A DNA stretch of 64,000 bases, taken from positions 310,001 through 374,000 of the forward strand of contig OZ237772.1 in the NCBI GenBank assembly GCA_965178125.1, written 5' to 3'. Below are positions 664-50,436 of this stretch, piece after piece (the first letter of the stretch is position 1; the number at the start of each line of letters is the position of its first letter). The notes beneath the pieces were generated by a model. That model made no database searches. It was not told the DNA's origin and saw only the letters and a list, made by a program, of their open reading frames with translations. Both the position numbers and the translations under genes were made by a program. This DNA comes from Bilabrum cf. latius. Taxonomy: Eukaryota.

Positions 664-2407
664 ATGGCTGCACGGATGCGACCGGACTATGACGATGATT
701 TCTTCGGGTCGATGAGTGATGACGATGAAACAAGTGGGAAAGGCGATCTTTGGGGCGCAGATCGCGACAGGCAGGCGGCCACCGCTTCTGCAACCAAGGC
801 AGCGTACAGAGAAGCAGCCGGTAATGCGAAAGAAAATGGAACCCAAGACGGATTTAATCAAGGATTCTCATCGGGTATGCGTATGGGCTTTGCTCGCGGT
901 TTCGTACACCAAGCAGCGGTGTGAGAACAAGACGTGGCATTCGTGCAATCGAAAGAAGCATGCCTAGCGAGTTTGAAGTTTGAACAACGTTTCCTGATGT
1001 TCCAACTTGCGCAGATCTATGGCGCTTGCGTTGCGAGAAAGGCGACACTTGCATCCGTTGGCCATCGGGAGGGCGACCGAGCAGCTGCGGGCGCTCATGC
1101 TCGCCACTGCAACGAAGCACCGGTTGGGCACAGAAAGATACCCAGCAGCGGAACACGCCGTGCAATCTCTCATGAAACGATCAGCCCGACCCCCAATGAA
1201 CCTCATTGCGGAGGAAAGGAGGAAAACTGACGCGAAGAGGGAGGCAGCCGCGCTGGCGGGGGAGCAGGACTTCAGCCGGTGCACCGAGGTCGAGGCGGCC
1301 CGACTGGTTCATGAAGGTTCGCTGAAGCGTCTCCGCCAGGTCGCCGAGATGCACATGGAAGCAGTGGAGGAGATGGAGCGACCCGCTGAATCGGTGGCGG
1401 GTGGCGACGGCGCGGAGGCTGTCACCGGGAGTGGCGCACATGCGGCTGCTGGCGATACTGACTCGGCTGGTGCTGCTGCTGCAGATGGCTAGGCAGTGGG
1501 GGGCGCCAGTGGTGGTGCCGATAGTAGTGTGACGAGTGGAGCGGGGGAGGGTCTGGCAGCTCGGAGGGCGGCGAGACGACGGAAAGGGAGGGGTGGCGGG
1601 GCGGTTGCAACCGACGGTTCCGCTGGCGGCGCCGCCGGGCAGGCTACCCTGTCTCTGGATGGGGGTGCGGCGGCCGAGCCGTCAGACCCGGCACAAAGCA
1701 ACCCGCGTGGAAGTGCCAGTGGCAGTGCAGCAGCAGGTACTGCTGATTCTGATTCTACCGGCAAAGATGGGGATACATCGGTTAGTGCAGATGCAGCAAG
1801 TGCAGCTGAAACGGAATTGGCAGTGCCAGCCTCCAGGGTGGAAGCACTGGTCCAGCGGGTCGGTGCGCGGCGCCGCAACGCTGGACCTGCGGAACCAAGC
1901 GACCCACTCCTCCCTGCCCGGCTCGCCGGACTCCTCGCTTCAATACTGCAGCGGCTAGCGGGCGAATTGGTGGAAGACGGGGGCAAAGAGGATGTGTAGA
2001 AGGAGGTGGGTCTAGGGGAGGCCCGTGGTGGGGCAGGGGCTGGAAGTGGGGCAGGGGTCGGGGAGGGGGCAGGGGCTGATTCTAGCACCGACGTGCGGAG
2101 CGGGCGGCTTGCGCTGGCATCCGTACTTGTGCGAGCAGTTGGCTCGCTCGACATGCAGGGTGCACTGCGCGATAGTGCGAGCGGGGCGGGGGCTGGCGGT
2201 CGAGTGGCAGGGGCTGCTGGTGATGCCGCGTAGTCCAGCGGAGAAGCTGATGCAGAAGAAGAACATGAGTAGGCCAGTGAAGGGAATGCCCCAGTGGACC
2301 GTGCAGTCCCTGTGTTCGGGCTCGGGGACGTGCGGGCGTGGGGGGTGGGGGGTCGCATCGTGGGCGAACAGGGCGCGGGGGACAAAAAAACGCGTGAGGG
2401 GTGGTAA
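664..2407 (+). CDS. Yae1_N (GxxxG repeat) domain protein with long low-complexity tail; join(664..920,1015..2407)
   Basis: QDGFNQGFSSGMRMGFARG is a Yae1/Lto1-type GX3 repeat. The GTGAGA...GCAG intron 921..1014 joins the frames exactly. ORFs 1007-1492, 1496-1999 and 2006-2233 are one frame separated only by TAG, ending at TAA 2405-2407. Confidence 0.6.
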
Positions 2408-2538
2408 ATTTCGCGCTTAACTTCAACCGGCACCATGCGAATAATGTCGAATTGCGGGGCTGCAGCATCCCAGACATGGGTAGATATAAGGTTGGTATCG
2501 AACAACCACTTGTCTATTCACTGCACGAAAGATAAAGC

Positions 2539-2736
2539 TCAGTTCGTCTCCGCATCACCGCCGGCCTCGTCGGCCTTCCCTGCCTCAGGATCCGAGTAGA
2601 ACATTGGCAACATGCTATGCCTAGTAGCTGGAGGCACAGCGGGCCAAGCAGCCCACACAGCAAAGACCAGCGCGGGCACGGCCCAGCGACCAGCTGCAAT
2701 GTTTGTAAGAAATGCAGCATTAGAGAGCAAAAACAT
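2539..2736 (-). CDS. Small single-pass membrane protein, possibly cytochrome bc1 subunit QCR10-like
   Basis: 65 aa, MFLLSNAAFLTNIAAGRWAVPALVFAVWAAWP..., with one TM helix and a TGA stop. The resemblance to QCR10 is from memory only. Confidence 0.4.
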   Translation of the reverse strand: MFLLSNAAFLTNIAAGRWAVPALVFAVWAAWPAVPPATRHSMLPMFYSDPEAGKADEAGGDAETN

Positions 2737-3100
2737 GATTTGCAGTTGCACTACGCATGTTTAATCTTGCAGCATGCACAGCACAATTCAAATCGAACAA
2801 CCTATCAATCCATAGTTGTTGATGGGTGCGCGATGCAGACGCACCAACTGGACTGCCCAAGCCTCAAGTAAATGTCAACTCACCACGTCCGGCCCAATGT
2901 CCGGCAAATCGGATAGAGTTAAGCGCCATTCTATCTCCGAAGTCTACCTTGAATCAGAGTTTTGTCCGGACCAGCACCTCTCGTACTTTTTGTTCGATAT
3001 TTCGGATGTACACCGTACTTAACACAAATGTGACGAGTCCGACATCCACGGGCCTTCCGTGCACGTGTGTGGGCTCAGTAGGCTCCACTAGATCCTTACC

Positions 3101-6100
3101 ATGCAATTTTATGGACTATTACAGATATTAATAGCATGCTTGCTGTCATCTATCGCGTGGGCCAGCTCTGAACCCGTGGAATAGCCGTAGGAGGCGTCGC
3201 AGTTCGTGTTTATTGGATCGAACGGCAACTTGGCACACCGATACGTCTGGCCCGCTCTGTTTCGCATTTGGTCCGTGCAAGGTCCGGAGTATTTCTAGGT
3301 AGTAGCAGTTGTACGGCGTCAAAGGGACGTGGAATCTCTCAAGGAGAAAATATCTTAGAATCACCAGTGCACCGATGACGACAGCGATGCTGGTGATTTC
3401 ATCGCAACAGGGCTACCTGCCGGGTGCAGCAGGCGAGCAGCCCAGTTTGCCTCGGCTGTACGTGTTGTGGTTGCGAGAGACCCCGATGCAGACTATTTCG
3501 ATGTCGCCAACGCGCTCGGGCCACAGGTGGGGGATCTCGAATCGACAGCAAACCACGGCACTCCATCCCCTTTGCCTGTCGGAAACCGGATTTTCTACGT
3601 TGCAACACCACCCTCTGCCTTTGCAAGCGTGGCAGCCGGCCTGCACAAGCACTGTGTGGGACCCGGAGCCGTTCCCGCCTCGATCGCGCGCTCCAGCAAG
3701 CTCGTGCTAGAGAAGCCCATTGGGAGGGATCGGAGCAGCGCAGAGGCCCTTCTGGGAGGGCTCAGGGAACAGTGGGGCGAGGGGAACGTCCTCCTCATGG
3801 ACCACTTCCTCGGGAAGCGAGGCGCACAGATGATACCCGCTGCGAGAGCAGCAGCGGGGGAGGGACTGAGGTCATTTGCCTGGGACTGGATCAACCTCAA
3901 GGCGGTGGACGTTCTGGTGACCGAAACAGATCCGTTGAGCCCAGAGCGGGCGGACACGTACGCTGAGCTCGGCGTCGTACGGGACGTGATGCAGTCGCAC
4001 GCTACCCAGCTGGCGTCCCTGGTTCTCGGTCCGCTCTCGACCGGCTCAGCCGACAAGAGCCGCATTGACCACCCCACCGGTCGCAAGAGCGACTCCAAGG
4101 CGCACCCCACTGACAGTGCAGCAGGCTACCTCAAGCAGTACAAGAAGCCCGCCGGGGTGGTAAGTAGCGTGCGGATTGGAGATGTCGGATCCGCCAGCGT
4201 CCCTTCCGACGCGAGGACGCGCGTCGCTCTCGGGTTCGAACCCGCGCGCGGTGCCGGCAGGCACAAGCGCTCTCTTGTGCTTGGCCGGCACTACGATGCT
4301 GACGAGTGCGACACGCAGGGGGTGTCCTCGTCCTCCTCGGCTGGATCGCGGGCACTGAACGGCACGACGTGCGCCATCAAGGGCGGGGGCAACGGCGATG
4401 ATTCTGGCTCCGAATCCAGCAGGTCACGCACCCCTACGGCCGCCCGCGCGAGCATGATGCTGCACGTGGGTCTGCAGGCGCTCTCCGGCAGCGAAGGTTC
4501 CTCGCAGGGTTCGCTGGTCGTCCCGCCACTCCCCTCCCCGGAGCGTCTGGTGCAGGACCCCATGCTCGTGGGTGTACCCATGGCAGTTGTGGCCGGCAAG
4601 GGCCTGGGAAAGCGGGTGGCAGCCGTCCGCCTGCACACCCAGCACGGCGGCAGGGTCACCTTTGTTGTCCAGGGAACAATGCCGGTGGTGGCACCGGTGC
4701 CCGAGGGGGTGCTCCTGCGGGCGGCCGAATCGGCGCTGAGGGCCGCAGCGGGCCTGGCGAACTCTGACGAACCTTCCCTGGACCAGGTGCTGGAGTCGTG
4801 CTCGCAGGACGCTTTCAGCGGCCTGCCCGCGTGGAGGCCAGAGGGGGTGTACGCGAGCGAGGGAACAAGCGACGGCGATGGCACGGGTGCCGCAGGGGCA
4901 GCGGCGTATCGCGGCACGCTGACGAACGCAGGGCGCGTGCGGTTCGCCTTCGAGGCGTGGGCACTGGAGGTTGCAACCGGTACGCCGGGTCCAGGGAACA
5001 ACGTGACGTACCCCACGGCGGAGGAGGACGTGGCCCGTGCTGCCGCGGAGGCCGTGCGGCACGCAGCCATGAGTGCCCAGCTCGGCGTGGAGCTGGTGGA
5101 GGTACACGGCCCCGCCTTCATCGTGGAGCGGCCAGTCGAGCGGAAGCTGCAGATCCCCAGGCCAGCAGGCGTGCCCTCGGGGATGCGACTGGCGATCGGG
5201 TGGGACGAACCGAACCCGTAGGTGCTCGTCGCAGTGATGGACCCCTCCTCGATCCCAGGGAACAGTCCAGGGAACAGCCCAGGGAACAAGGGGGCGCAGC
5301 TCGAGGGCGCCATCGCCAGGCTAGAGGCAAGCGGCAGCTCCGTGGCCGCATACGCGCGCGTCCTACACGCCGCCCTCACCCCCGACACGGCCGATGACGC
5401 GCAGCTCTTCGCCTCACCACTCGAGGTGCTGGCTGCATGGCGGGCTTGGGACCCAGTGGTGCAGCGAGCGGAGGGGACCGGGCCTTTCGCCAGGGCAGCG
5501 CGGCTGGAGGCCGCTCGCCTTGCACGGCTGTCTTCTGCTGCCGCTGCCGCTGCCGCTGCTGTTCCTCAGGGAACAACCAACGCCACGGATGTGTTCCCTG
5601 GAAGTTCCGGCTCCGAGTCCTCCGTGGTGGACGAGGCCCTGATCGAGGAGCAGCGCGAGGAGGCCGATAGGCTTGCCATGGCGAGGGAGGTGATCGAGGG
5701 GCTGACCCCGCAGCAGAAGAAGAGCTTCGGGGCTGTGGCGGAGGAGGCCGAGGCCGACATGGGAGACTCCCGTGTGACGAGTGGGATCTCGCTCCCGAGC
5801 GCGCACAGCGACGTGGATGCCACGAAGGTGCTTCCTCCGGTACGGCTGTACAGGCCCGGCGAGACCGACTGGTTGGGTCTGGACGGCCCCGCGATGTGGG
5901 TGCGGTGTGACGATAACCAGTGTTCCCTGGATTCGATGGCCGTGGGTGACGCCGCCAAGGCGGGCATGCTGCCCCCCATGGCTCGGGAGGCTGCACTGCA
6001 GCGCCAGGAGCTGCTGAGGCAGGGCAAGCGGCCCCTCAAGGCCTCCTCGGGGCCCTCCACCGTGGACCGGCTGTATGACCTGATGGAGGAGGAGGCCAAG

Positions 6101-6277
6101 GAGATGTGCGTGGGGGTGGATGGAGTTGCACGGCATTGCGGCGCGTGGATGCAGGGAGCCATGGAAGACGCGGCCAGGAAGATGAAGATGAAGAACAACA
6201 AGTCGGAGTTGGAGAAGGAGAAAGTGGGAGGGTCCGGAGGGGGGAGGAGGCAGCGGCCGAGGAGCCAGGCAAGCTGA
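3101..6277 (+). CDS. H6PD: Glucose-6-phosphate dehydrogenase family, ER-luminal H6PD type with signal peptide (~1058 aa)
   Basis: With TAG=sense there is one frame from ATG 3101. It contains signal peptide MQFYGLLQILIACLLSSIAWA, Rossmann motif FVFIGSNGNLAHRYVWPALF, RIFYVATPP, LEKPIGRD, DHFLGK, GVVRDVMQSH and C-terminal AYARVL...EVLAAWRAWDP. In-frame TAGs are at 3182, 3188, 3296, 3356 and 5219; the stop is TGA. Confidence 0.85.
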
Positions 6278-6712
6278 TAGTGGTAGTGGTGGTGGTGATG
6301 GTGGTGGTGGTGATGGTGATGCGAATGATGTGCAGTGGGTACGTCCCTCTGCTGCGGCTGGAGCGACCATGTGGACCACTCCCCTTCCCGCCCCCTCGTA
6401 TTCAGCCAGTGATTTCCCAGCGCTGTGCGGTCGCCAGAAGTTGCTGCTACTGCTGCTGCTGTCCGATTCGGAGCGAATGGTGCGTCAGGATCGGATCGGA
6501 TCAGGTGCCCGCTGCTCGTGTTTGCTATCTGCACTTTCCTGCGGGAAATGCAATATCAACGTTATTGGAAGGCCACCGGCATGCATACGTATTTGAGCAA
6601 AGCGGGTTGACGCACAGGCCAAAACGTCGACAACATCCGTGGTGACGCATGTCAAATCCGGAGCCACGCACCGTCCGCCATCACTTGTCCCTCCCCATCC
6701 ACTCTAATCAAC

Positions 6713-9511
<2,799 letters not shown>

Positions 9512-9851
9512 ACTACTCTCATAGGTGTGTTGTTTATCGCCCGCACCAGACCAATCGCGAATCGCAATCTATTCTTCAGCGGAACTCATACGCGCGGCGC
9601 CAAAAGTGAAACTCTAGGTGACGGTTTACAATCGTGAGCGACCCAGCGGCGTACCCACTCATTACCCACTTCAATCGAAGCTAGCGCAATCTTCGATACG
9701 AACACATTTCTTAACACTAAGGAGCTGCCTCGAATTTCCACCAGATTGACACGAACCTGGCATTGCGTCGATTGAATCCACCCATCGACATCGACCGCTG
9801 GATTCTTCAAGCAATAGTTGACTAGTGACTGCCAATCACAGTAGCTTTGAC

Positions 9852-11693
9852 ATGTACGGAAGACAAAGACATAGGTCTGGAAGGCGAACCGAGGGGGCCT
9901 CCCAGGGCAGGGGGCAGGCGCCACCTCCGAATTCCAGCGGCACTGCCGCTGCCGTAGCATCAAACCTGCAGCAGCAGGTGCACTTGCTCGAGCTGGAAAT
10001 CCACGCTAGAAGGAAGGAAGCAGCGGAGCAGGAACGCAATCGCAAGGCGGAAGAGGCCATTCTGCACGCGGGGAGAGACACGCAGCCGCCGCCGCTGCCG
10101 CCCCAGTCCTCCCGATTCGCAGCTCGCTCCGCGCTGGGCCGTCACGCAGCGGCCCAGCACGCATCAGGCAGGAAATCAGTGCAGATGCAGTATGAATCGA
10201 GCAGGCCAGGAACCACCCACCGATCTGCCCCGACCACTTCCTCCATTCGAGGCGGTGTCCGCAGCAGCAAGCCGGCAGAAGAAGGGAGCGAACGCCTAGA
10301 GACCGAGCACGGAGCAGGTGCCCGGGGGCAGGCGAGCGCCCGAGCAAGCGGACCAGTCCCCACCGACTACGACCACGCCGGCAGCGGTGCAGCTGCCGCG
10401 GGTGGCTTCGACGGCGGCATGGGTGTGACGAGTGGCCCCGAGGAGGGCCTTGACGACGACGAGCTGCTCCTCGCATTCCGCCGCCGGCTCCGCAGGCAGC
10501 AGGACGCTGCGAGGCGGGCAGAGGCGGAGTCGCAGCGCCGTGAGGCATTCCTCCGGAGGCAATCGGAGGTGCAGGGGGCCGTGGCGGCTCAGCTGCGACA
10601 GGAGCTCAGGCGGCAGGCAGACCTGCACGAGGAGCAGAGGAGGTCCTGGGCGGCTGCAAGGGAGGACGCTGAGCTCCGGGCCAGGCGGGCGGCGGCCGCG
10701 GCATCTCGCGCCACGGACGGCCGCAAGAGGAGCGAGGACCGTGCCAAGGAGGAGGAGCAGGCGCTCCGATCGGATGTTGAGGCATTGCAGGCCCGACTCA
10801 GGGAACAAGTCGCGGCCAGGGCGGCGGCGGACGATGCTGCGGAACAGGCCTCCGGCGCCGCGCAAGAGGCCTCGAGGGCGAGTGCGGCCGCAGAGAGCCG
10901 AGCGGATGACGAGCGGCGCCGCGCATTGGACGCGCGTGCGGAACTAGACCGCGCGCAGCAGGCCGCGCGGGGATACCAGGAGGAGGCAGCCAAGGCCGAG
11001 GGGCGAGCACAGGCTGCAGAGGCCGCGCAGGCAGCGGGGGAGAGAACAATCGCGGAACTTTCCGCGAAATTGCGAGAGGCGGGCGAGCGTGAGTCTAGGC
11101 TTCGCTCTGAGCTATCGGCGGTGCGGGAGCAGCTGCGTGAGGGCGAGGAGCGTTGCGACCAAGCGGGTAGGGAGGTGGTCGCGGCGAGGGAGGAGAGAGA
11201 CGATGCAGTCGGCCGCGCGGCTGATTCCGCAGAGGCTCGGCGGAGCGCGGAGGCTGCTGCAGCGCACTACCAGAGGCAGGAGCAGGAGGCGAGGCACAGG
11301 GCAGCGAACGCGGAGGCTGCTGCGGCGGCCGCTCGCCGGGACGCTGCAGCCGCACGTGCCGCCGCCGAAGATGATGCTAGTCGGCGGGCGGCCGCTGAAG
11401 GGGCAGCGGCGGAGGCGGCGGCAGCCGCAGAGGCGTCGGGAGCGGCGCTCGCAGCGGGGCGGGAGCGGGAGGCCAGGTTGCTGGAGCAGCTGCAGGAGAA
11501 GCAGTCGCAGCTGGGGGCTGTTCTTGGGCGGGGGAGCAACGGCGGGGGTTTTGGTGGAGTGACGAGTGATGGGGTGCCATTGGAAGGGGGTGGCATGGAT
11601 GCGTCCGGGCTGGAGGAAGACGAAGAAGAAGGGCACTCGCAGTAGCATGGGCGAGGCGCGGGCGGGTACCGGGACGAGGGTGGGGAGTACTGA
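9852..11693 (+). CDS. Long coiled-coil protein (Ala/Glu/Arg-rich), function unknown
   Basis: Heptad-like helical composition. ATG at 9852, reads through TAG 11643 to TGA 11691-11693. Confidence 0.7.
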
Positions 11694-11846
11694 GTTGGTG
11701 ACACGCAAATCATGAAGAATCATGCGGATAAGGGTCGCACCGCATCATCGTAGCCGCGCCTGGCACCTTGCACTCGTCATCGCACCAAATCTTGCAGTTG
11801 GCTGCCGGAGATCGAGCTTTCCACTTGTTCAAAAGGTCGTGATAGA

Positions 11847-13777: not shown

Positions 13778-13816
<39 letters not shown>

Positions 13817-36683: not shown

Positions 36684-36889
36684 GGCTCACATCGCTGCTG
36701 AACTAGAAGCAATGTGTGTGTGTGGTGAATTGTTGGGCCCAAAGCAAGGTGCACGGCACTGCTCCATCATGCCAATCAACATCGATTCCAGCACTGTGTC
36801 AATCAATGTCGGCAGATGCCCACATACTTCTGCACTGACGTTTTGTTCACTGGGTATCGCATGAGCCTGTGTTAAGTTGCTGGAAGACC

Positions 36890-39550: not shown

Positions 39551-39731
39551 GATGTGAGAGTTGAGGCACTACCAAAAGCAAGGACGATTTGAGCAGTGTC
39601 CGCGACGAAGGTTCGGACCAAGATCGGGAATCGCGGCAAAGATCCACACCGCGATTGAGCGAACGAGGCCATGTCGAGTTCTCACACCAAAGATACACAC
39701 AGGAGAATACAAGCCAACCAGCCACCAAGCC

Positions 39732-40265
39732 ATGATCGCCACAATCGCAACACTTCTCTCCGGAGCCATTCTCGCCCATGCAGCCATCCCCGGGGCTCTC
39801 CGGGGCATCGGATCGGCGGGCGCACCTTCAGGCGCGGCTGTCGCTGACATGAGTTCTTCCCCACAGGCCAGCGAGCCCCGTGGCAACGACACTGCTCCAT
39901 CCACGGAGGTATGCTCTTCGTCTGGCTCATACCCATACCAGTTCCCAAAGCCCTGCAGCGTGGTGCTTGGCCACGGAAACTCGGCCAACGTGTACATCCA
40001 CATCGACGGCGGGGGCAACGGCCGGATCGGCTGGTTCGTGAACTCCACGCAGGACAGCAGCGCCCCGCTGGACTACATCGTGTACAAGGACGGCAGCGTT
40101 CACACCCAGGGCGGGCTGCATTCCGGCTACCTGGTGCAGGAGCACGACCTGGACGTCGGCCCAGTCGGGAATGGCAACCAGTGGAGCATCAACGTGCACC
40201 AGGCCGATCTCTTCGGGCATGCGCGGGCAGAGCTGGGGTTCTGCCAGGGGCTCAGCTGCCTGTGA
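39732..40265 (+). CDS. Small secreted beta-rich protein, unknown function
   Basis: Signal peptide MIATIATLLSGAILAHA, strong C/G-ending codon bias, four Cys and a TGA stop. Confidence 0.7.
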   Translation: MIATIATLLSGAILAHAAIPGALRGIGSAGAPSGAAVADMSSSPQASEPRGNDTAPSTEVCSSSGSYPYQFPKPCSVVLGHGNSANVYIHIDGGGNGRIGWFVNSTQDSSAPLDYIVYKDGSVHTQGGLHSGYLVQEHDLDVGPVGNGNQWSINVHQADLFGHARAELGFCQGLSCL

Positions 40266-40925
40266 GTTAATCCGGAAGGATCACCGGCGGTCTGTGGCCG
40301 CGCCATGGAACCGCCTGAGGACTGAGCACGGGGCTGATTCGGAGCTTTCCATTGCTGGTGTCGCCCGTCGTTTCCTACAGATGCTTGCTTAGTTGGATGC
40401 AGTGCTTAGTTGCTATGATATACAAAAGTTGCTTTAGTTGAGGGAGACTGGATCAGGCTCTTCCACGACATTGGCTACGTAGCCTACGTATGGGGTATCG
40501 GATTCATGTCGTTGCGCCCATCTTCAGTCCATGGCATGGGCCCCTTACATTATAGCTATAGAATTCAGACAACTTTGACTTTCAATTGGTGATGGCAGCC
40601 CTACTTATCCACCCCTTGCGCCACTGGTGGCACCCACCCCCTAGATGACCCCTCCCATTCAGCCCCCTCGCGGGGTTCTGTCATCGATCCGATCCATAGA
40701 TGAAAAAAAATATTGGTCGGCGACGACCCGCAGGTGGCTCCCACACTTTTTTCCAAGCTAAGCATGTCGGTATCGCCATCCAATGCTCATGCCAGCGCAC
40801 CTCGATGTAAGGAAAGATTGAATTGAGCTAAAACCTATGCCGGTTCCTCTTCCCGGTAGTGATGCAAGTAGCACTGCTTCATGCCGCCTTGACTGCATGT
40901 GTCTAGGGGGTGGCTGATACGAATC

Positions 40926-41912
40926 ATGCCCGAGTAGTCCAATCTTTCAGTACACACTGCAGCCGAGCGAAAGCTTGAAATTCGGATCGATGACAGTACG
41001 TCCAAGGAGGCACTGCAAGCCATCCAGGAGCTCGATTCCGACAAGGATGGAACCGTGTCTCTCGGTGAACTCGTGGCAGCCACACAGAAAATGGCAAACC
41101 TCCAAGCCAACAACGCCAGCTTGCAAAGCTCCGTGTACATGCTGAGCGTTATGGTTCTATTGTCCCTGGTGGCAGTGTTCGGTACGTCATACTTGGCCAT
41201 CATGGCGGCAAAGGACCAGTTCGTGACCGACGGCAAGCTGGTGAGCGGCAGCGGCGATACTATCGCAACGAGCGAGAACATTCAGCGCAACAACGCAGGC
41301 CAAGACTACCGGTCGCTTCTTGGCCTGCAGTACAACGATCTGCTGCAGCTCAAGCAGCTCAGTATTCGCACAGCCCACGGCATGACCGACATGCGAATCG
41401 CAGGCTTCGACCGTCTAGAGGCCGCCGCTGACGCAGGCGTGAGGGACGAGATCACCTTCTACGGCCATTCCGGTCACATGCTGCACATCACACCAGACTC
41501 TGTCGACTTCATTGTGCCTGTTGTGGCGGAAGGTACCGTTCAGTCCGTCCGCCTCAGCGAAGGTGCGGAACAGGGCCGTCGAGCGGAAGCATCCGTGGTG
41601 ATCCCAAGGACTCCTCTCCTGCGCATGTCTCCGGCCGAGATTGACACACATGCAAAGATGGGGTCCTTCGACGGGCTCTCGGAGGCGACGCACTACGTCC
41701 TGCCGCTCCCTGTTCCGGGCCAGAGCCACGCAGATGCGCAGGAGCGGCATCGCCGCCTGGCTGCACGCCGCGAGGACCACGGGCGCCGCCTGTTCATCGT
41801 ATTCCCACTGCCAACGCCAGACGTCTCGCCGGAGATCTTCTTCATCACGGCTCCCATCCCGGACCAAACCATGATCGGACCCACCAACTACGAGTCGTAC
41901 GTGCCTTTTTGA
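40926..41912 (+). CDS. EF-hand plus single TM protein, unknown function
   Basis: ATG CCC GAG TAG.. reads into the EF loop DSDKDGTVSLGEL, then TM MLSVMVLLSLVAVFGTSYLAI; the stop is TGA. Confidence 0.7.
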
Positions 41913-42360
41913 GATGTCCTGCAGGTGCCATCTCGGATGTGCGTGGCGAATGTGTTGGATGCTGAGGCTTGTTGTGTAGACAGCGTTGGGACTCGGGGCT
42001 GTGGTAACGCGATTCGATCGCACCGCTCTCCTTCTCGGCAGCGCAGCCCCGGTCACAATCGGATGACACAGGGAAGGGCGCGTGGGGCGGCACGGCCGGG
42101 CAATGCATGTGTGTTTATTTGTGCCAGCATATGGAATTAGCTTGAGCAAGTCGTACTTTACAAGCGTAACTAATCCATGGATGCATCACGCAAGCAGGAC
42201 CCGCAGAAGACCAGGCACGCTGCAGCTCTGCAGCATGAGGTTCCGTTTGTTCGATTGCAGTGCGCGGCGCCCAATTTACGCATTGATCTATAACAGCATT
42301 GGTGCATTACCACAGCTTCCTCAAAGCATGGCTGGGGTAGGGATGGGTGGTTAGGCTGCT

Positions 42361-44353
42361 ATGCAAGGTGATCCTGGAAGGCATCTTGGTGCGGGGCCCT
42401 CAGGTGCGCCTGCCGGGCCCATCACTGCGGATGATCGAAGAGCGGCATTCCTAGGCGGCGCGAAAAAGCGAAGGCCGGTAGTACAAGTGAATGATATCAC
42501 GGAAGATTTTTTGCGATTCACACTGGATGGATGCGATGTTGGTGTCGCAAATGGGCTTAGGAGAGCCATTATTGCAGAGGTGAGTTCGTTGTCCAAAAGC
42601 ATAGTACGCTGCCTTAGTCCTGCAAACGCATTGCATGGCGCTCATTATAGATTTGCCTCACTCACCTACCAGGTCCCAACTCTTGCGATCGACACGGTTG
42701 AGGTCGAAGAGAATACCACTGTGCTGCATGATGAGTACATTGCTCATCGTCTCGGTGAGTTATCACAGCAATGCGAGCTTCAAGCATTGTCTGAATTGTA
42801 TATTCCCTAATACTCTCAATTGAGTCGCATTGATCTGCCTGCAGGTTTGATTCCTCTGCGGGTGGCCCTCGGAGCTGACTAGTTTGTAGAAGATATCTTC
42901 GGTTTACCAGTGAGACCAAACGTCATGAACGTCCTTTGCTTGCGTTTAAGTATGATGTATTCTCTTCGTTGCGTACCGATCGGCTATTTTGTGCACAGGG
43001 CACGGACGACGCGAGAGAAGTGAACCTCGTGCTGGACGTGAAGAACGGCGCAGAGCCCCTCCGCCTCGTGACCTCCCACGACTTGAAAATCGTCCCCATC
43101 GACACCTCCAGGGACACACTCGTCACAGTGGCCCACACATGCTCCGAGGACGAGGCACAGGGCCTCTACCGCTTCTCTGGGGCAGAGGACGACGACGCCA
43201 TGGAGCAGGAGGCCAAAGAGGCACACGACCGGGGGGCCCCCGAGGAGGACGTAGAGGCGCTCAAGCCAAGACGAGTGCCCGGGGATGCGCCGGGGGGTAT
43301 CCTGTTGGCCAAGCTGGGAGAGTATTAGCACTTGAAACTCAGGTGCCAGGCCACCGTAGGGACGAGCATGATGCACGCGAGGTACATGCCCGTGTCCACT
43401 GTGAGCATGCACCCGTACTTCAGTGTCGCGCTCAACACGGATGAAATCGACGCTTTGACGGAGGAACAGAAACAGGCATTCGTGGCAGAGGCGCAGGCAG
43501 GTGAGAGAACAAGAGGCACTTGCGGAGGTATCGATAGCATGACATCGGGGGCGACTGGGGTGCTGGCCTGATTTTGGGTCGCACTTTACTTGCCTTGCTC
43601 CCCCCCCCGTTCAAGCCCCCCCCCCCCGTCCAAGCTGCCACTTCCTCCGTACTCATCGTAGCTCTTACCAGCACCCTCATTTTCGTTAATAAATGTTGTT
43701 TCCCTACTTCCACCACCGCAGGCATCTTCAAGTACAACGAGACGGAGGGCACGATCGAGTGCGTGGACCCTCAGGGGATCAACTGCCCCGCTGACCTTGA
43801 GCGGGTGGCAGCTCTGCACAGCAAGTCGGACGAGCCTTTGATCGCCATCCACTCGCACCCGACTCGGTTCATTTTCGACGTGGAGTCGACGGGCGTGATG
43901 CCTCCCACAAAGATTGTGCAGTCCGCTCTCAGGCAGCTGCAGATCAAGTTCGGCAGGCTCGCGCGAAGCATCGGGCGAATCAGGGAGGGCGAGAAGGACG
44001 GCACTATCAAGCCCACGGCAGCGGCTGCATTTCAAGGAGGGGCAGGGGCGGGGTTGCTGGCGGACGAGGGCACTGGCCAGGTGGCTGCAGCCGATGGCAC
44101 GGCGGCGGGTGGGGTGGCAGCCAACGCGGGTGTCAGCGTTCCGGCGATCGGGGCGGGCGGGCCGGAGGAGGAGGAGGCGGAGGCCGAGGCAGCCAGGGGG
44201 GGGTAGTACCCGGGCATGGAGATGGGGATGGGGATGGGGATGGATATGGGGGGGATGGGCGGCGGGGTGGGGGCAGGTGGAGGCTACACGCTAGGGGCTG
44301 GGGGGGCTGTCCCCGGTCAGGGGGGCGGCGTGGGGGCATACCAGGGGTTTTGA
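42361..44353 (+). CDS. RPB3: RNA polymerase II subunit RPB3; join(42361..42579,42673..42754,42845..42909,42999..43500,43722..44353)
   Basis: ANGLRRAIIAE|VPTLAIDTVEVEENTTVLHDEYIAHRL|GLIPL, ILLAKLGEY*HLKLRC..HARYMP and FIFDVESTGVMPP. Four GTGAG..AG introns preserve the frame. There are three TAGs and the stop is TGA 44351-44353. Confidence 0.9.
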
Positions 44354-44523
44354 ATCAAAACTATTGATGCTCTGTTCGATGCAGGGGGCGACTTACGCAC
44401 AAATATGTCTTTCTTGTATGAACTATTCAACCGAATCAGACGCGATGGAGTGCGTGCCTGCGTACCGGCCGGCAGCGTAAGGTTACGTAACCTAGACCTT
44501 GTCCAGGTATGCACGTCTCGGTT

Positions 44524-44610
44524 GTGCACTGCAGCACCGTGCACACATCGGCAGTGCACTGCAGCACCGTGCACACATTGGTGGTGCACTGCAGCACAGT
44601 GCGCACATCA
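44524..44610. repeat. Three ~30-bp tandem repeats (GTGCACTGCAGCACCGTGCACACATCGGCA-like) with internal GTGCAC palindromes
   Basis: Units start at 44524, 44554 and 44584, between convergent gene ends. Confidence 0.8.
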
Positions 44611-45510
44611 TTGCCTACTGCCAGGCGCCGTGCTGTTCTGCACTGCACTGCCGAACTGCCTCCCCTGTCTGAACCTCCCCGCCGCCGCAGCGTCGCCTGC
44701 CTGCACCATGGGGGCACTCCCATGGGAAGGCACCATCGGTCTGCCGCCGCTCCAGAGGGCATGGCCGAGGAGACCACCCCCACCCCCACCAGTGGTACCG
44801 GTTGAACCCCCGGGTCGCCCCTTGGGAAAGTCGTGCAGGGGATGCCTGGCGGGATCTAGTGTGGGGAAATCGTCACCGGCGCCGTTGCCTGCTGCACCCG
44901 AGGAGGTGCTCGTGCTCGCCCCCTCCCCTGGCACTGCTGCTCCTGACCGCGGCAACCGACGCTCCGTCGCCGGGCCAAAGCTCCCGCCAAAGAATTGCGC
45001 GAGCACCTGCTCCATCCGACTTGCTCCCGCGTCTTCTGCTCCAAGCGCAGGCAGCTCTGGAGGGGAGGTTGATTCTTGCGCGTCTCCCTTCCGAAGGATG
45101 ACTGTCCCAAGCTACTTCTGCGAGCTTGCAACACAAGGAAATTAAATTCGCGTAAGTAATCCTAGCATGAAGCAGGTAGATAGGGAGACGGATGTCAACA
45201 TTAAGTACAACTGGCGTGGCCCCGTGGCAACGATATTCTGATCAGACAGTCACTCTCACAGGTGGTCTTCCGCTGCACTACTCGAGGACGTGCACAGATT
45301 TCATAGAAGTAGATTTTCCGTTGACCCAAGAATACTCCGAGCTTTGCATGGTTGAATGCCCACAGCCTTCCTGAACCTGGCTCTTCAGCTTGCTAACTTC
45401 TTCCAAAAACTTGTCATCGCTTCCGACAATGATCTATGCCTAACGCGAACTCGATCTACTATCTTTCATCCTATTTGCTGTGCACACCGATAATGCAGCA
45501 AATAGCAATT
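44608..45510 (-). CDS. Hypothetical protein, exon structure and start unresolved
   Basis: Frames ..LLFAALSVCTANRMKDSRSSSR*A*IIVGSDDKFLEEVSKLK.. and ..K*LGTVILRKG..MEQVLAQFFGG.. are open apart from TAG. The stop is TGA 44608. No recognisable domain. Confidence 0.35.
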
Positions 45511-46001
45511 TGTAGTAACAGAGCAGAAAATTTGTGTCGATTAACCGGATTCTGTAGTTTTTGTAACGTGTCGATACATTCGAAATGTTGGTGTCTACAT
45601 CTTGTACCCAATATATCCCACGGTTTCGTGAGTATCTGTGCAATTTGTGGCTACAATGTATGTTATATGCATGTTATGTGCATGTTTAGACTGTTAACAT
45701 CCGTGATTATCAAAGAAATAGCTTGTGGATTGGACTCAAAAGTGAAAACAGTAGATTTGCGTTTAAATGAACATGCCATGCAGCGCCCGTGCAATTCTTG
45801 CTGATAGGTGCACCCCAGTGACGATTAAATTGTATGCTTAAACGGAATGTTGAAGATTGCTTCGATCTAACCCTCTAGTTGTGTTGTTAGTGCAGCCCCA
45901 CTTGTATTTGAATTTCTTGGCCTATTTGCAAGCTTGTCCGATTCGCTCTGTCGGCATTCGGAGACAGAACCGCAACATGCAGGTATTCGTATGCTATCCC
46001 C

Positions 46002-49000
46002 ATGCTTTTCGCAGCTAGGGCTATGAAACCGTCTGAACAGCGTGTGTCTGGGCCAGCCGCACCAGCGGCACTAGGCTCGTAGGTTGCCAGCGCGCGTTCA
46101 GCCACGGCTCCGTCTGCGCATAAACCAGCGAGCGCTGGTAGCACACAGTATTCTGCACAGCACGGGCTTTCTGCGTCAAGCGCTGGGTCGTCAGGAGAAT
46201 AGTCGTCGTCGTCGACGTCGTCATCTTCCCAGCATGCTTCTGCGCCGGCTTCTCCCCAACTGGGCCCCGACGCCGGCTGGAGCGCCGGAATGACGAGCGT
46301 GCTCAAGGCCAGCGAGGAGGGCGACATGGAAACCCTCACGGCCCGCTGGCGCAGCTCGTACGCAGGCAGGTTTCAGGCCGTACCCCCCACGGTGGATGCG
46401 CACCCTTTGCTCATCGCCGTGCACTTCCTGTAGCCAGCCGCAGTTGAGGTAAGAAGGTCTACTCAATGTAACTTGTATCACGAATCTGGGCGTTGCTTGT
46501 GCATTTGACTAACGTGCTGCTGCTGCAAGCACCCTGGCACCACTGACCCAACCACTAACCCCTCGACTGGGCATCCTGCCTCACTCGTCACATCACACTC
46601 ATCACACTCATCGCACATCGCAGTTCCTCCTTGACCGGGGCATGTCAGCGGACCAGCCGGGCACTGCCGCGTCCTACCCCGGAGACGGCATGATGGCCTC
46701 GGAGCTTAGGGGGATTACGCCCATGGAACTCAGCGAGAAACTGCTGTTTGTGCACGGGCGGAGGGGAAGGAAGGGCAAGGCAGTGCAGGCGATCAGGGGA
46801 CACCTGCGGGCCGCAGCAGAGAAGGCGAGATTGGCGGCATACAGGGAACAGCTGGAGGCGGCCTAGAAGGCTGGCGCCGAGGAAGGGGGTGACAGGAGAG
46901 GAGGGGGTTCCGCTGCCGGTGTCTGCGCTGGGGAGCAAGGGGAGGGCGGTAGCGGAGGGTCGCAGGAACAGGGGCAGGGCGCCGGCGGCGGGTTGCCACA
47001 ATCGTCACCCGTTGTTGGCCGCAGTTCCGCTCGCGGCGCCGCGCAGGAACAGGGCACTCCCGGCCACGAAGGTCCTGCTGCCGGATCCGCGCTTCTGACG
47101 CCCGCCACGCTGCAATACGATACACCCCGGGGCGGCAGCGGCGGAATGGGAGGTGGAACGGGGGATCAGCAGCAGCAGCCTCTCACCGTGTTGCGATCAC
47201 GATCTGCAGACAGCACGGCCTCATCGTCGTCATCGTCGTCTGCTATGGGGAGTGGGGGAGCAACTGGCAACAGGAGCAAGCGGCCCCCACGGCGAGCTGC
47301 CGCGGTAGCCGCACGATAGGTGGTTGCAACCGCTACGCAGGCAGACGGGGATGACAAGCAGCAGCAGCAGCAGCAGCAGCGGCAGCAAAAGCCGTTGATG
47401 AATCAAGGGGACTTGCAGGGAGTCGAAAAATATGCGGCGGGCCACCAGTCTTCTAGGCATCGCAGCAACGATGACGGGGTGGCGCAGCGTCTCTTCGCCG
47501 AAGGTGCAGCGCACGATAGTGCAGCGGGAGCTGCCCGCACCGTTGGTCGCAAACGACCCAGGGCAACCAGTCCCCGGGTACCATCAGGCGAGCAGATCTA
47601 GGCCCAGGCATAGACGCAGTGTGACGAGGATGCGGGCGGCTCGGGATCAATTGCGCCTGCTGCAGCAGCACCGGCGGCCCGACCTCCAAACCGGAAAAAG
47701 CGCAGGCAGACGGCCGGTGGTCCAGCTTAGACCGCGGTATCACCAGCGGCAGCTGCCGCCACCAAGCAGCACCAGCAGCACCAACAGCAGCAGAAGCAGC
47801 TCAAGCCTTAGGGAACAAACAGCAGGGTACCCTCGTGGGTTCCGAAGCAGGTCGCCTCTAGGCCCAGCCACAGGCAGCCCCAAGCCCCCATGGAGCCATC
47901 GCACTCGTCACACCAGCATCACCCTCAGGAGTCGGCCCGTCCGCAGATGCTCCTGCGCACCCGCACGTAGGCGGCTCGCACCCGGCCGCCAGAGGCTGCA
48001 GGTGACCAGCCCCTTTGTTGCGTGCTGTTTGCGCTGTCGAACCACCCCGATGCGGTTGCGACCGATGCCGTGCTGCAGTGGTGGCAGACCCACCGACCCG
48101 CTTGGGCAGCTGCCGCTGGTCCTGCCGCGGTGCTTCCCTTGGTGATCCGGGGTGAAGGGGGGGCGGCGGAACCGGCCGGTCTGGGGGATGGGTCTGCACC
48201 TGCACCTGCACCAGCACCAGCATCGTCGTCGTCCTTGCAATCTACATCTTCATCTTCATCTTCTTCTATGGCCTCCTGTCAATCGGGACCAAGCTAGGAG
48301 GCGCTGTCCGATGCGCTCAGGACAGCCGTGCGGGGGGCTCTGCTGGACATAGAGTCGACGGGGCCGGCGATGGTCCGGCACGGTGGAAGCAGGGATCGAG
48401 GAGGAGGCCACAGCCGGGGCGCCATTGCAAGGCACTCGGAATCACAATCAGGCTGGGTGGGCGGCCTCAACTCAGAAGACCCTGTGGCCATCGCGGAGGC
48501 CGTGCAGCGGAAGATCCGGAGCCTAAATGAGAGCTCTCCTACAGCCAGTGGCATCGGCGCGGCTCAATCCGGTGCTGGTGCTGGTACTGGTGCCGGTGCC
48601 GGTCACGTCGCACCCAGCGCACTCTTGCAGGAATTGAACCTGGGAGCGATCGGCAGTAAACAGGCAGGGAGCGAGACAGCGCCCCCCTCGGCTTCGATAT
48701 CCGAGCTGGAGGCTGCTTGCCCCACCAGCCTCAGGCCATCGGGTGTGACGAATGCGGGGTCACGGTCTCTGGGGCTCGGGTGGTTCGAAGCGCGGCGCCG
48801 CTTGGTTGCGGAACCTGTCTCGGACTGCGTAGCCCGAGTGCGCAGGATCGTGCACGGCGCTGCTGGGACAGGAGCCATGGGTGGTGTTGCTGATCCGATC
48901 ATTGATCCGATCGCGCAGGTGGTCGCCAATCAGATCCTAGCCTAGCAGAGGAAGCGGCGGGGCAAGGGCACCTCGTCAGCGGCGCCGCGCACTTACGATG

Positions 49001-50436
49001 GTCCATAGGACGCCGACATAGCGGCCACGTACGCAGTTGCTGCGGCAGCCGCTGACAAAGCAGAGAATACCGTGTCTACTGCAGGTGGCCCATCGGGCCT
49101 AGCCTGGGAACAGCGCGTTCGCATCGGGGCTGGCATGTATCCGTTGAGAGCGGCGCTGCTCCGGTGGATCTGCGACGTGCCGGTTGCAACCGGTGCATCG
49201 CCAGCCCCCGTGGCAATGTGCCTCCTGCTCCTGCAGTCGCCCATGGCCGTGCAGCGGCTGCGTGTAGCGAGTGCGCTGGGCCAGGGACTGGTGGTGACCC
49301 CGCTGGGAAGGTCGGCAACGAACCTTCACCGCAGGGTTCGGCAGCTGGGCGAGCCAGAGAATGCAGCCGCCTCTTCGTCGCGCCCTGCGCCCGAAGCGGA
49401 CGCAGGACCTGGGTCTTCGCTGTTCCGGTTTAGCAGGTCGGATCGGATGGCCCTGCGGCACGCGGCCGCCTCGGCCCCCACACCACTCGCTACCCTGTCG
49501 GTCCTGGAGCGGGCGGCTGCTGCTGAGGTTGCAACCGGGGGGGGTGTGCTGTCAGTTGGACTGCCCGAGAGCCTTGCGCGGCGGCTCGACCGGGCCGCCA
49601 GGGGGGCCGTTGGTTCCGCTGTGGCGGCGCCGCGCATCGGCCACCTGCCCGACCTGCAGGCCCTCCTGCGGGAAGGGGCCCAGAGGGTGGCCGGCAGGAG
49701 GAACCCGCTCCGGGGGCTCAGCCGACTGGCAGTGGCCATGGGCGGGGTCAGGGAGGGTGCACCGCACGGTGGTGCAGCTGGTGATGCCCCCATGGTTGGG
49801 GAAGCTCCATCGCAGGGGCATGGACAGGGGCATGGACAGGGGCATGGACGGGGGGAGCAAGCGGGGCCCACGGTGTGGGACGGTTCCCTGCCGCAGCCCG
49901 CGCATGTGGCGGGCCCCGCCTCACTCGTCATCGTGTCTGTGCCTTCTTCGATCCCAGTGGATCCCGCGGTTGCAACCACTGACGACCTGAGACAGGTGGC
50001 GCGGCTGGTGCGGGCCGTGGGCGGCTGCGTGCCCCTGGCCAAACAAGCAAGGGTGCTGGTGGTCGCAAGAGCCGCCGAGAGCCTGGGCGCCGCGGCGGTG
50101 CGGAACATAGGGCCCGGAGGTGCGGAGGCATCACTGGAAGCGTGGGAGGTGCAATCTGCGACCAAGTGGGAGGAGAGGCTGCGGGAGTTGGTCGCAAACG
50201 AGAAGCCGGTGAGGCTGCTGTGTCCCTCTCCTGGCTGCCCCCCCATGGCTCGCATGTCGCTTTCACCGCTGGTGCTGGCGGATGGTACGAGCCCATCCGG
50301 TGAGATAGAGCTTGGTTCGAAATCCACGTTCGGGGTATAGCCGCTGGTGCTCGCCACGAGCGGCCAGGTGTGGCAGGAGCAATTCGTGCTGGCCTGCGTG
50401 CAGCTCTCGGGTAGGGAGGGAGAAATGACCGGATGA
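46002..50436 (+). CDS. Large low-complexity protein with N-terminal ankyrin-like repeats; join(46002..46448,46624..50436)
   Basis: VLKASEEGDMETL..HPLLIAVHFL*PAAVE|FLLDRGMSAD spans the GTAAGA..CAG intron 46449..46623. There are ~14 in-frame TAGs and no TAA/TGA until TGA 50434-50436. The start could be 46002 or 46023. Confidence 0.65.

What the first reader, a model, noticed from the sequence alone, without database searches (positions are those of the whole stretch)
1603..49977. Highly iterated palindrome GGTTGCAACC embedded in genes
Seen: 13 exact copies of a perfect 10-bp palindrome at 1603, 4969, 14087, 15845, 32317, 32659, 33196, 37966, 37990, 47322, 49182, 49527 and 49968. Uniform expectation is about 0.06. 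All are in CDS and are read as Val-Ala-Thr (GTT GCA ACC) on whichever strand codes, although these GC-rich regions otherwise favour G/C-ending codons. I saw no copies in the five-gene membrane family. Inference: this is a HIP1-like iterated palindrome or homodimer/methyltransferase site, possibly acting with the TGTGACGAGTG motif.
Basis: partly seen in the sequence, partly recalled or inferred. Interest (0 to 1): 0.7.

Follow-up and report, generated by a model that had tools for sequence, protein, structure and literature searches.

The report
Driven DNA motifs inside protist genes
A marine flagellate carries thousands of exact copies of a few 9-11-letter DNA words written into its protein-coding genes, densest on its smallest chromosomes, much like the self-promoting uptake sequences of some bacteria, which suggests a sequence-specific drive tied to recombination in a eukaryote.

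Summary
Confirmed: 13 exact GGTTGCAACC in the window (0.08 expected), all read as Val-Ala-Thr. The host is a eukaryote (Cafeteria-related flagellate, about 42 chromosomes) that reads TAG as sense, most likely Gln. The palindrome is genome-wide (1,190 vs 18 control) and one of a set: TGTGACGAGTG (3,180 vs 8), TGCGCGGCGCC (1,700 vs 41; paired with GCGGAAC in any orientation) and CAGGGAACA. Codon usage does not explain it (41 of 119 VAT vs 1.3 expected), and it adds VAT to the proteome. Where homologues could be aligned, copies differ by substitution, not insertion; near-matches are close to background. Copies per chromosome are independent of chromosome length (exponent 0.02; controls 0.95), and some copies sit in promoter-like modules. 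No fixed spacing to TGTGACGAGTG and no host methyltransferase for the site were found, so it is not HIP1 proper. Best reading: binding sites of host DNA-binding proteins, spread into genes by recombination-linked transmission bias. The binding protein and the drive are inferred, not shown. My searches found no report of such a system in a eukaryote.

The parts
1603..1612 (.). Motif A GGTTGCAACC, read GGAVATD in a + strand gene (998-2407, TAG read through)
4969..4978 (.). Motif A, LEVATGT in G6PD-like gene (3023-6277 +), which also holds 9 copies of motif C
14087..14096 (.). Motif A, LAVATTG in gene 11694-16043 +
15845..15854 (.). Motif A, RAVATVE in gene 11694-16043 +
32317..32326 (.). Motif A, PTVATGA in BBS2 (- strand), downstream of a read-through TAG
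32659..32668 (.). Motif A, EAEVATAG in BBS2; Cafeteria has EAEAAAAA at the aligned place
33196..33205 (.). Motif A inside the conserved BBS2 propeller: ETAVATDL vs Cafeteria ETAAVTGL and the PDB chain 6vbu_2 ETEIITSL, no gap
37966..37999 (.). Two copies of motif A 24 bp apart (DGVVATSMDGVVATGL) in gene 36839-39550 +; retained in RNA contigs
47322..47331 (.). Motif A, qVVATAT, directly after an in-frame TAG in gene 46513-50436 +
49182..49191 (.). Motif A, VPVATGA; retained in RNA contig
49527..49536 (.). Motif A, AEVATGG; retained in RNA contig
49968..49977 (.). Motif A, PAVATTD
1528..51973 (.). Motif B TGTGACGAGTG, 18 dispersed copies on both strands (mostly V-T-S, also T-R-H, H-S-S-H, L-V-T)
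5254..5288 (+). Motif C CAGGGAACA, triple copy (21 copies in the window)
9579..9601 (+). E (GCGGAAC) plus D core (GCGCGGCGCC) pair in intergenic DNA upstream of the gene frame starting at 9822
34323..34358 (.). D plus E pair in the divergent intergenic region between BBS2 and the next gene (207 and 287 bp from the ATGs)
42261..42271 (+). Motif D upstream of the RPB3-like gene
22260..22284 (.). Motif B next to a one-mismatch A in one member of the membrane-protein family; the three paralogues align without gap and lack it
31651..34041 (-). BBS2 reading frame continuous through TAG at 32593-32595 (evidence for TAG as sense codon)

Best explanation
GGTTGCAACC is one word of a small dictionary (A GGTTGCAACC, B TGTGACGAGTG, C CAGGGAACA, D TGCGCGGCGCC with partner E GCGGAAC, weaker F TTGCGACC) of recognition sites for sequence-specific DNA-binding proteins of this flagellate; A, being a perfect palindrome, fits a homodimer. 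A minority of copies sit in promoter-like modules. The majority arose by point substitution inside coding sequence and were fixed by a transmission bias during homologous recombination: where one homologue carries the perfect, protein-bound site and the other does not, the bound allele is cut or resected less, or copied more, so it is over-transmitted. Copies therefore accumulate where recombination per base is highest (small chromosomes; for B and C also the zone 50-350 kb from chromosome ends), and protein-level selection lets them persist mainly in tolerant frames (V-A-T) and less conserved genes. SHOWN: genome-wide excess, exactness, substitution at the aligned sites, effect on the proteome, D+E pairing, chromosome-size dependence, presence of meiotic genes. 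INFERRED: that proteins bind, which proteins, that the chromosome gradient is a recombination gradient, and the direction of conversion bias.
For: Genome counts vs reversed controls: A 1,190/18, B 3,180/8 (19), D 1,700/41 (91), C 13-mer 191/2 (88). One-mismatch variants of A are near Markov expectation (37 sites vs about 25) against 44 exact sites, as expected for active maintenance rather than decay. VAT 119 vs 71 expected, permutations 47-81; VTS 97 vs 50: motifs add residues, as bacterial uptake sequences do (PMC2817400, abstract). Gap-free alignments across motif sites in BBS2, the membrane family and two paralogue pairs. D has an E within 60 bp in 60 of 77 cases (59 within 30 bp), on either side, in either orientation, spacing 10-30 bp: two cooperating binding sites, not one inserted element. 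On motif-poor C1, 9 of 25 A copies are non-coding or low-GC and several form modules with D/E/F upstream of an ATG, vs 2 of 32 on C38 (p=0.007; 6/22 vs 1/31, p=0.016, after dropping retroelement copies and two doubtful calls). Copies per chromosome scale as length^0.02 (CI -0.42..0.44, 152 collapsed sites from two 13-mer subsamples) vs 0.95 (0.46..1.42, 110 control sites), contrast p=0.008; B subsample -0.76. In loci picked without regard to motifs, A+B+C+D per 100 kb CDS = 6.5, 16.8, 32.4, 54.5 for C1-10, 11-20, 21-30, 31-42 with flat GC4 (per-locus rho 0.43, n=58, p=0.0009); the difference holds in Pfam-positive genes (6.1 vs 22.3, p=0.03). C 13-mer on C1-22: 64 hits at 50-350 kb from ends (13.2 Mb) vs 28 interior (15.2 Mb), p=9e-6. 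GC4 within 40 codons of 215 motif sites 0.712 vs 0.688+-0.006 in 200 within-gene permutations, compatible with conversion tracts. Two Spo11/Top6A genes, Mnd1, Rad51 and a second close paralogue. In yeast, short chromosomes and end-adjacent regions break more (10.1101/201889, abstract) and bound factors can locally occlude Spo11 (PMC3534124, passages).
Against: No recombination map, polymorphism or binding data exist here; the four runs laid showed no variant at any motif. For A alone, ends vs interior on long chromosomes does not differ from controls (36:41 vs 37:31, p=0.41), and one control is itself somewhat end-biased. Among the 31 samples at a fixed 250-260 kb from the left end, the size trend is not significant per locus (rho 0.26, p=0.16), so size and position are partly confounded. 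Overall GC and GC4 do not rise on small chromosomes. Motifs are depleted in the first 500 bp after the first ATG (1.5 vs 7-9.5 per 10 kb), opposite to a promoter-centred break landscape. In the unguided loci B and C had 0 copies in the 300 bp upstream of genes, so the promoter origin is supported only for A, D, E, F, on small numbers (A 4 of 24 vs 6% of sequence, p=0.06). The second RecA-like gene scores alike against Rad51 and Dmc1. Sex has not been shown in this organism by any search.
Confidence: 0.45

Rival explanations
1. The motifs are selected cis-signals that recruit recombination, pairing or axis proteins (like yeast hotspot motifs or nematode pairing-centre motifs); their distribution is the cause of a per-chromosome-constant recombination landscape, not its by-product.
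For: Constant number per chromosome, U-shape for B and C, meiotic genes present. Simple factor-bound motifs create hotspots in fission and budding yeast (PMC3534124, passages).
Against: Break-promoting alleles are eroded by conversion (recalled), which should leave many one-mismatch relics; these are near background. Thousands of sites that change amino acids would each need their own benefit. No polarity to the chromosome arm (50:49 for C, 36:27 for B).
Confidence: 0.2
2. Intragenic sites selected for a vegetative chromatin role (nucleosome organisation, transcription roadblocks, origin licensing, SMC loading), with denser need on small chromosomes.
For: Exact sites, D+E cooperativity, depletion near gene starts, promoter-like modules.
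Against: Very patchy: long runs of ordinary conserved genes (Top1, Xrn1, FBPase, Vps35, GatB) on large chromosomes have almost none; no spacing periodicity in 570 pair distances; no obvious reason for an eight-fold size gradient.
Confidence: 0.15
3. HIP1-type system: a site-specific methyltransferase marks the motif and methyl-directed mismatch repair converts near-sites to perfect sites (model of PMC4390886, abstract).
For: A is a perfect palindrome; deviations cluster at the outer positions for B and D; such repair in heteroduplex DNA would also track recombination.
Against: No PF02086 (79) or PF01555 (107) match; the five strongest C5-MTases lie on AT-rich virus-like inserts; B, C, D are asymmetric 9-11-mers, unlike usual MTase sites (recalled); A has no CpG. 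Five weaker C5 matches were not examined and the MT-A70 search was uninformative.
Confidence: 0.1
4. Footprints or decayed remnants of a mobile element.
For: One repeat family with split direct repeats carries A in its terminal repeat (L178, L015, L162).
Against: Of 310 motif copies with 80-bp flanks, 14 had a homologous flank elsewhere in the held DNA, all paralogue-like pairs; homologous sites align without gaps; few degenerate copies; D-E geometry is free; RNA contigs keep the motifs, so they are not spliced out.
Confidence: 0.05

Closest known systems
DNA uptake sequences (DUS/USS) of Neisseria and Pasteurellaceae (PMC2817400, abstract read)
   Same: About 10-bp exact words, hundreds to thousands per genome, inside CDS; roughly double the frequency of the encoded tripeptides; frame bias; prefer poorly conserved genes; attributed to molecular drive through recombination (recalled).
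   Different: Eukaryote; at least five distinct words, one palindromic and one cooperative pair; density depends on chromosome size; no uptake receptor known; no terminator stem-loop pairs seen.
HIP1 GCGATCGC of cyanobacteria (PMC4390886 abstract; PMC5861425 and PMC13756078 search listing only)
   Same: Palindromic, strongly over-represented, in coding DNA regardless of codon preference.
   Different: Different sequence, 10 bp, no GATC/CGATCG core, no cognate host methyltransferase found, no periodicity, accompanied by asymmetric motifs.
Chi sites of E. coli (recalled, no call)
   Same: Recombination-linked word over-represented in coding frames, plausibly preserved because repair treats it asymmetrically.
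   Different: No orientation bias along chromosome arms; A is symmetric; no RecBCD-type system expected.
Factor-bound meiotic hotspot motifs of yeasts (M26/CRE, CCAAT, oligo-C, 4095, 4156; PMC3534124, passages read)
   Same: Several unrelated 7-10-bp motifs, bound by transcription factors, linked to recombination; occlusion of Spo11 at the bound site is described.
   Different: Those motifs are rare to moderately common (21-1,878 copies in S. cerevisiae in that paper's Table 2); none equals A-F.
Myb recognition element YAACNG (PMC6022509, one passage read)
   Same: The extended A site CGGTTGCAACCG is two YAACNG words head to head; the flanking C/G is present in 64% of half-sites.
   Different: The position free in YAACNG is invariant in A and the final G is optional; a lead only, binding not tested.

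Membership tests
HIP1 / alternate HIPs | Highly over-represented short palindrome in coding DNA | tested here: met
   1,190 vs 18 control; 41 of 45 sampled copies in coding frames
HIP1 / alternate HIPs | Sequence GCGATCGC or a GC-rich palindrome in a cyanobacterium | tested here: not met
   GGTTGCAACC in a eukaryote with spliceosomal introns and telomere repeats
HIP1 / alternate HIPs | Cognate orphan DNA methyltransferase in the genome | tested here: inconclusive
   None for PF02086 (79) or PF01555 (107); five strong C5 hits on virus-like inserts, one on a small contig, five weak hits unexamined; MT-A70 search without positive control
HIP1 / alternate HIPs | Methylation of the site | not testable with these tools
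   Needs raw long-read signal
HIP1 / alternate HIPs | Quasi-periodic spacing | tested here: not met
   No clear period from 8 to 259 bp in 570 pooled pair distances of motifs A-D; longer periods not tested
DUS/USS uptake sequences | Exact 9-10-mer inflating its tripeptides in the proteome, with frame bias | tested here: met
   VAT 119 vs 71, VTS 97 vs 50; 38 of 41 coding A copies in the VAT frame
DUS/USS uptake sequences | Preference for poorly conserved genes; absence from recently acquired DNA | tested here: met
   Pfam-negative 60.4 vs Pfam-positive 22.3 per 100 kb on small chromosomes; AT-rich virus-like inserts lack them except one retroelement copy (78)
DUS/USS uptake sequences | Naturally competent bacterium with a sequence-specific uptake receptor | tested here: not met
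   Host is a eukaryote; no receptor was searched for
Chi-like polar recombination signal | Orientation bias along the chromosome arm | tested here: not met
   C 50 inward vs 49 outward; B 36 vs 27, p=0.31
Mobile-element footprint or introner | Insertion relative to homologous empty sites, shared flanks, or removal by splicing | tested here: not met
   Gap-free alignments; mostly unique flanks; RNA contigs span copies at 33196, 37966, 37990, 49182, 49527 without joints
Transcription-factor binding site | Enrichment upstream of genes and occurrence in modules | tested here: inconclusive
   Modules of A/D/E/F upstream of ATGs; E 7 in 19.5 kb upstream vs 26 in 239 kb CDS on large chromosomes, but 1 in 14 kb on small ones; B and C none in the unguided loci
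Transcription-factor binding site | Protein binding | not testable with these tools
   Needs footprinting or DNA pull-down

The most novel reading that the evidence does not exclude
This lineage shows a eukaryotic counterpart of bacterial uptake-sequence drive with a different engine: the binding sites of several nuclear DNA-binding proteins act as selfish 'cold' alleles in meiotic gene conversion and have been written by point mutation into thousands of coding positions, changing the proteome and leaving a readable fossil map of recombination rate (the inverse of the hotspot paradox).
Probability: 0.35. Interest if true: 0.9.

Novelty: new variant of a known kind. Interest (0 to 1): 0.76.

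Why it matters
Driven short motifs that reshape proteins are known from a few bacterial groups (uptake sequences, HIP1). It makes a standing theoretical expectation testable: if break-promoting motifs erode, break-protecting motifs should spread. The organism has RNA and DNA runs on record, so footprinting, methylation calling and strain comparison are within reach. The same genome also shows an uncoupled UAG-sense, UAA/UGA-stop nuclear code in a stramenopile-like lineage, which my literature listings did not show.

Tried and rejected
Codon bias: rejected. General quasi-palindrome correction: rejected, other 10-bp palindromes in the window occur at most 3 times except GCGGCGCCGC, which overlaps motif D. 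Introns/introners: rejected. Fixed A-B composite: rejected. Periodicity and arm polarity: none. Allelic comparison: no second haplotype for BBS2 in the assembly; the four runs laid showed one host difference in 20 kb and none at motifs, so gain or loss could not be polarised; three of the four runs are only guessed to be RNA, though they show spliced RPB3 introns. Cross-species test: one Cafeteria-type metagenome contig around BBS2 (L081, 21.6 kb, 71% identity to P0002) has A 0, B 0, C 1, D 0, too little to say whether Cafeteria has its own motifs. Viral-contig scans for paired A or B returned 8 and 24 loci; the five B loci scanned with Pfam were phage-like or uninformative, and the A loci hold only local arrays without the other motifs. 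A tRNA(CUA) search by a short recalled pattern gave 21 matches at control level; 12 of 21 were scanned with ARAGORN and none was a tRNA. MT-A70 search uninformative. Five weak C5-MTase matches remain unexamined. Literature: motif strings, whole-word, 1 irrelevant paper; Cafeteria/bicosoecid with UAG or genetic code, stramenopile stop reassignment, HIP or uptake sequence with eukaryote or drive, coldspot/occlusion, bicosoecid chromosome-level or overrepresented motif, protist short motif with recombination: no listing describes this system; only open-licence full texts are covered and no supplements were read. A bioRxiv paper on endogenous viruses of a bicosoecid (10.64898/2026.07.28.741278, passages for five terms) mentions only viral promoter motifs and has no hit for 'genetic code' or 'stop codon'. 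No earlier scan findings.
Full report
1. Observation. The 13 copies of GGTTGCAACC (motif A) are at the stated places; shuffles give 0.08 on average. All read V-A-T on the coding strand. The motif is not local: 1,190 copies in the 48.6-Mb genome against 18 for the reversed word. The window is about eight times richer than the genome average and 23 times richer than the largest chromosome (203, 24.5 and 8.8 per Mb).

2. Host. The window is C38:310001-374000 of a genome of 111 contigs, about 42 of chromosome size (0.54-2.85 Mb); 5 of 7 large contigs checked begin with CCCTAA telomere repeats. It encodes BBS2, a G6PD-like protein, a VLRF1 protein, an RPB3-like subunit and an S49 peptidase. The best named homologue of BBS2 is from Cafeteria roenbergensis at 34% identity, so I take it for a bicosoecid-like stramenopile flagellate. 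Contigs of three runs splice four GT-AG introns of the RPB3-like gene. TAG is a sense codon: frames run through it in BBS2, G6PD and others, those contigs show no editing, and in paralogue alignments the commonest residue opposite TAG is Gln (22 of 49 non-TAG columns, alignments counted in both directions). All gene calls below use TAG=Q and a codon-score model of my own, so starts are approximate.

3. A dictionary, not one word. k-mer screens of the window and of a 714-kb sample with tandem repeats and AT-rich DNA masked give A, B TGTGACGAGTG, C CAGGGAACA, D TGCGCGGCGCC, E (A/T)GCGGAAC(C) and a weaker F TTGCGACC. Genome counts vs reversed controls: B 3,180/8, D 1,700/41, a 13-mer of C 191/2. 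A-E co-vary over 71 10-kb bins (rho 0.28-0.66). A and B have no short-range relation (0 pairs within 40 bp), whereas D has an E within 60 bp in 60 of 77 cases, 59 of them within 30 bp, on either side and in either orientation. That geometry is what two cooperating binding sites give and what a single inserted element cannot give.

4. Codon and protein test. In 212 coding frames, 41 of 119 VAT are GTT GCA ACC (1.27 expected), and VAT itself is in excess (119 vs 71; its permutations 47-81). Likewise 53 of 97 VTS are GTG ACG AGT (1.64 expected). The excess of VAT roughly equals the number of motif copies, so the motif adds residues. 38 of 41 coding copies of A use the VAT frame. One-mismatch neighbours of A are near background (37 sites vs about 25 expected, the excess mostly the F-related GGTCGCAACC) against 44 exact sites; B tolerates changes mainly at its edges and at its CpG.

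5. Origin by substitution. At 33196 the conserved BBS2 propeller reads ETAVATDL, against ETAAVTGL in Cafeteria and ETEIITSL in PDB chain 6vbu_2, without gaps. A B copy in one member of the window's membrane family aligns gap-free with three paralogues lacking it. Of 310 copies with 80-bp flanks, 14 had a homologous flank in the held DNA; in two of these the partner lacks the motif and differs by substitutions only. RNA-like contigs span five of the A copies without joints. One repeat family with split direct repeats does carry A in its terminal repeat; in the 93-site subsample three pairs 4,126 bp apart look like this element.

6. Chromosome pattern. With all places of two 13-mer extensions of A, the count per chromosome scales as length^0.02 (95% CI -0.42 to 0.44; 152 sites after merging neighbours within 7 kb; -0.03 for 169 unmerged), whereas two control 11-mers scale as 0.95 (0.46-1.42; 0.71 unmerged); the direct contrast gives p=0.008 merged and 0.03 unmerged. 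A 15-mer of B (100 of 103 places listed) gives -0.76 merged. In loci chosen without regard to motifs, A+B+C+D per 100 kb of CDS rise 6.5, 16.8, 32.4, 54.5 from the largest to the smallest chromosomes while GC4 is flat (per-locus rho 0.43, n=58). Large chromosomes are not short of old genes (Top1, Xrn1, FBPase, Vps35, GatB), and the difference holds in Pfam-positive genes (4 motifs in 65 kb vs 8 in 36 kb, p=0.03) and Pfam-negative ones (7.3 vs 60.4 per 100 kb). B and C are concentrated 50-350 kb from the ends (C: 64 vs 28, p=9e-6; B on C2: 29 of 37 within 50-450 kb of an end, 46% of the length). Against this: for A the end bias on long chromosomes does not exceed the controls, one control is itself end-biased, and at a fixed 250-260 kb from the left end the size trend is not significant per locus (rho 0.26, p=0.16, n=31). 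At 4-10 kb scale the pattern is patchy, with gaps over the multi-copy membrane family, tandem repeats and AT-rich virus-like inserts.

7. Promoter-like copies. On motif-poor C1 I examined all 25 A copies: 16 are coding; 9 are non-coding or in low-GC DNA near gene starts, some in modules such as F+A 105 bp upstream of an ATG (L157) and D+A plus an E-like word (L167). On the 264 kb of C38 only 2 of 32 are non-coding (p=0.007; p=0.016 after dropping retroelement copies and two doubtful calls). So a low, roughly constant non-coding component seems to coexist with a coding component that varies about twentyfold. The evidence is thin (4 of 24 within 300 bp of an ATG, p=0.06) and absent for B and C. 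Motifs are depleted in the first 500 bp after the first in-frame ATG, part of which may be non-coding.

8. Mechanism. Exactness, a symmetric A site, free D+E geometry and upstream modules point to recognition by proteins. Substitution origin, amino-acid change and preference for less conserved genes match molecular drive as in bacterial uptake sequences (PMC2817400, abstract). A per-chromosome-constant count is the pattern of meiotic recombination; in yeast short chromosomes and end-adjacent regions break more (10.1101/201889, abstract), and bound factors can occlude Spo11 at their site (PMC3534124, passages). The genome has two Spo11/Top6A genes, Mnd1, Rad51 and a second paralogue that scores alike against Rad51 and Dmc1. 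GC4 is slightly raised within 40 codons of motifs (0.712 vs 0.688, 0 of 200 permutations), which fits conversion tracts but also GC-rich low-complexity linkers (flanks are richer in A/G/S/T). I therefore favour recombination-linked over-transmission of protein-bound alleles (0.45) over selected recombination or pairing signals (0.2), vegetative chromatin sites (0.15), methyl-directed repair (0.1) and element footprints (0.05). No call shows binding, sex, recombination rate or transmission bias.

9. Comparison and novelty. It works like DUS/USS and resembles HIP1 in being an iterated palindrome, but it fails or leaves open their defining features: wrong kingdom, no uptake receptor known, no cognate methyltransferase found (five weak C5 matches unexamined), no periodicity or polarity. 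The extended site CGGTTGCAACCG resembles two head-to-head Myb elements (YAACNG, PMC6022509, one passage), a lead only. Searches for the motif strings and for the phenomenon (listings only, open-licence library, no supplements) found no description. PMC4390886 was read as abstract, PMC8547959 and 10.64898/2026.07.28.741278 as passages. Verdict: a real, strong, genome-wide feature; a new eukaryotic variant of driven iterated motifs; mechanism plausible but unproven; interest 0.76.

Noticed in passing
whole window; e.g. BBS2 32593-32595, G6PD-like 5219-5221: Nuclear genetic code with TAG as sense codon (most likely Gln; 12.6% of Gln codons under that reading) while TAA and TGA stop. Not seen for a stramenopile in my literature listings. 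tRNA(CUA) not found by a short pattern.
   Followed up: partly
L015-L017 (C38:250-280 kb), L050, L052, L092, L084-L088: AT-rich (31-40% GC) virus-like inserts, some near-identical across chromosomes; L084 encodes an integrase-like protein and a C5 DNA methyltransferase whose frames contain in-frame TAG, i.e. they use the host's code. They lack the motifs.
   Followed up: partly
L178:1834-6279, L015:8521-8720, L162: Repeat element with split direct repeats (154 bp and 146 bp pairs; Ngaro-like by layout, reverse transcriptase not checked) carrying motif A in its terminal repeat, nested in virus-like DNA.
   Followed up: partly
G000 C1:1.43-1.71 Mb: Interior cluster of A, B and D on the largest chromosome (e.g. 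14 of 47 D copies in about 10% of its length); C1 is about twice the size of the next chromosomes, possibly an old end-to-end fusion.
   Followed up: no
window 31212-31900: The BBS2 C-terminal hairpin domain lies in a different frame from the rest of the gene, near C-rich runs at about 31820-31863: assembly slip, small intron or frameshift.
   Followed up: no
window 18594-25061, 25875-30875, 52626-57575, 57921-63425: Four paralogous large membrane proteins (1,650-2,150 aa) without Pfam match, TAG-rich (8-22 each), motif-poor.
   Followed up: partly
window 3023-6277: G6PD-like protein with a hydrophobic N-terminus and a long divergent C-terminal part holding nine copies of motif C.
   Followed up: no
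L132-L155: In viral contigs GGTTGCAACC occurs as local arrays of 2-3 copies 10-33 bp apart, like repressor operators; unrelated to this genome but shows the word suits a dimeric binder.
   Followed up: no
L081 (Cafeteria-type contig): CAGGCAAT occurs 5 times in 21.6 kb (0.4 expected) and resembles motif C; picked after the fact among all 8-mers, so not significant alone.
   Followed up: no
gene starts in the 714-kb sample: GC and GC3 are lower in the first 500 bp after the first ATG (0.575/0.61) than in gene bodies (0.63/0.70).
   Followed up: no
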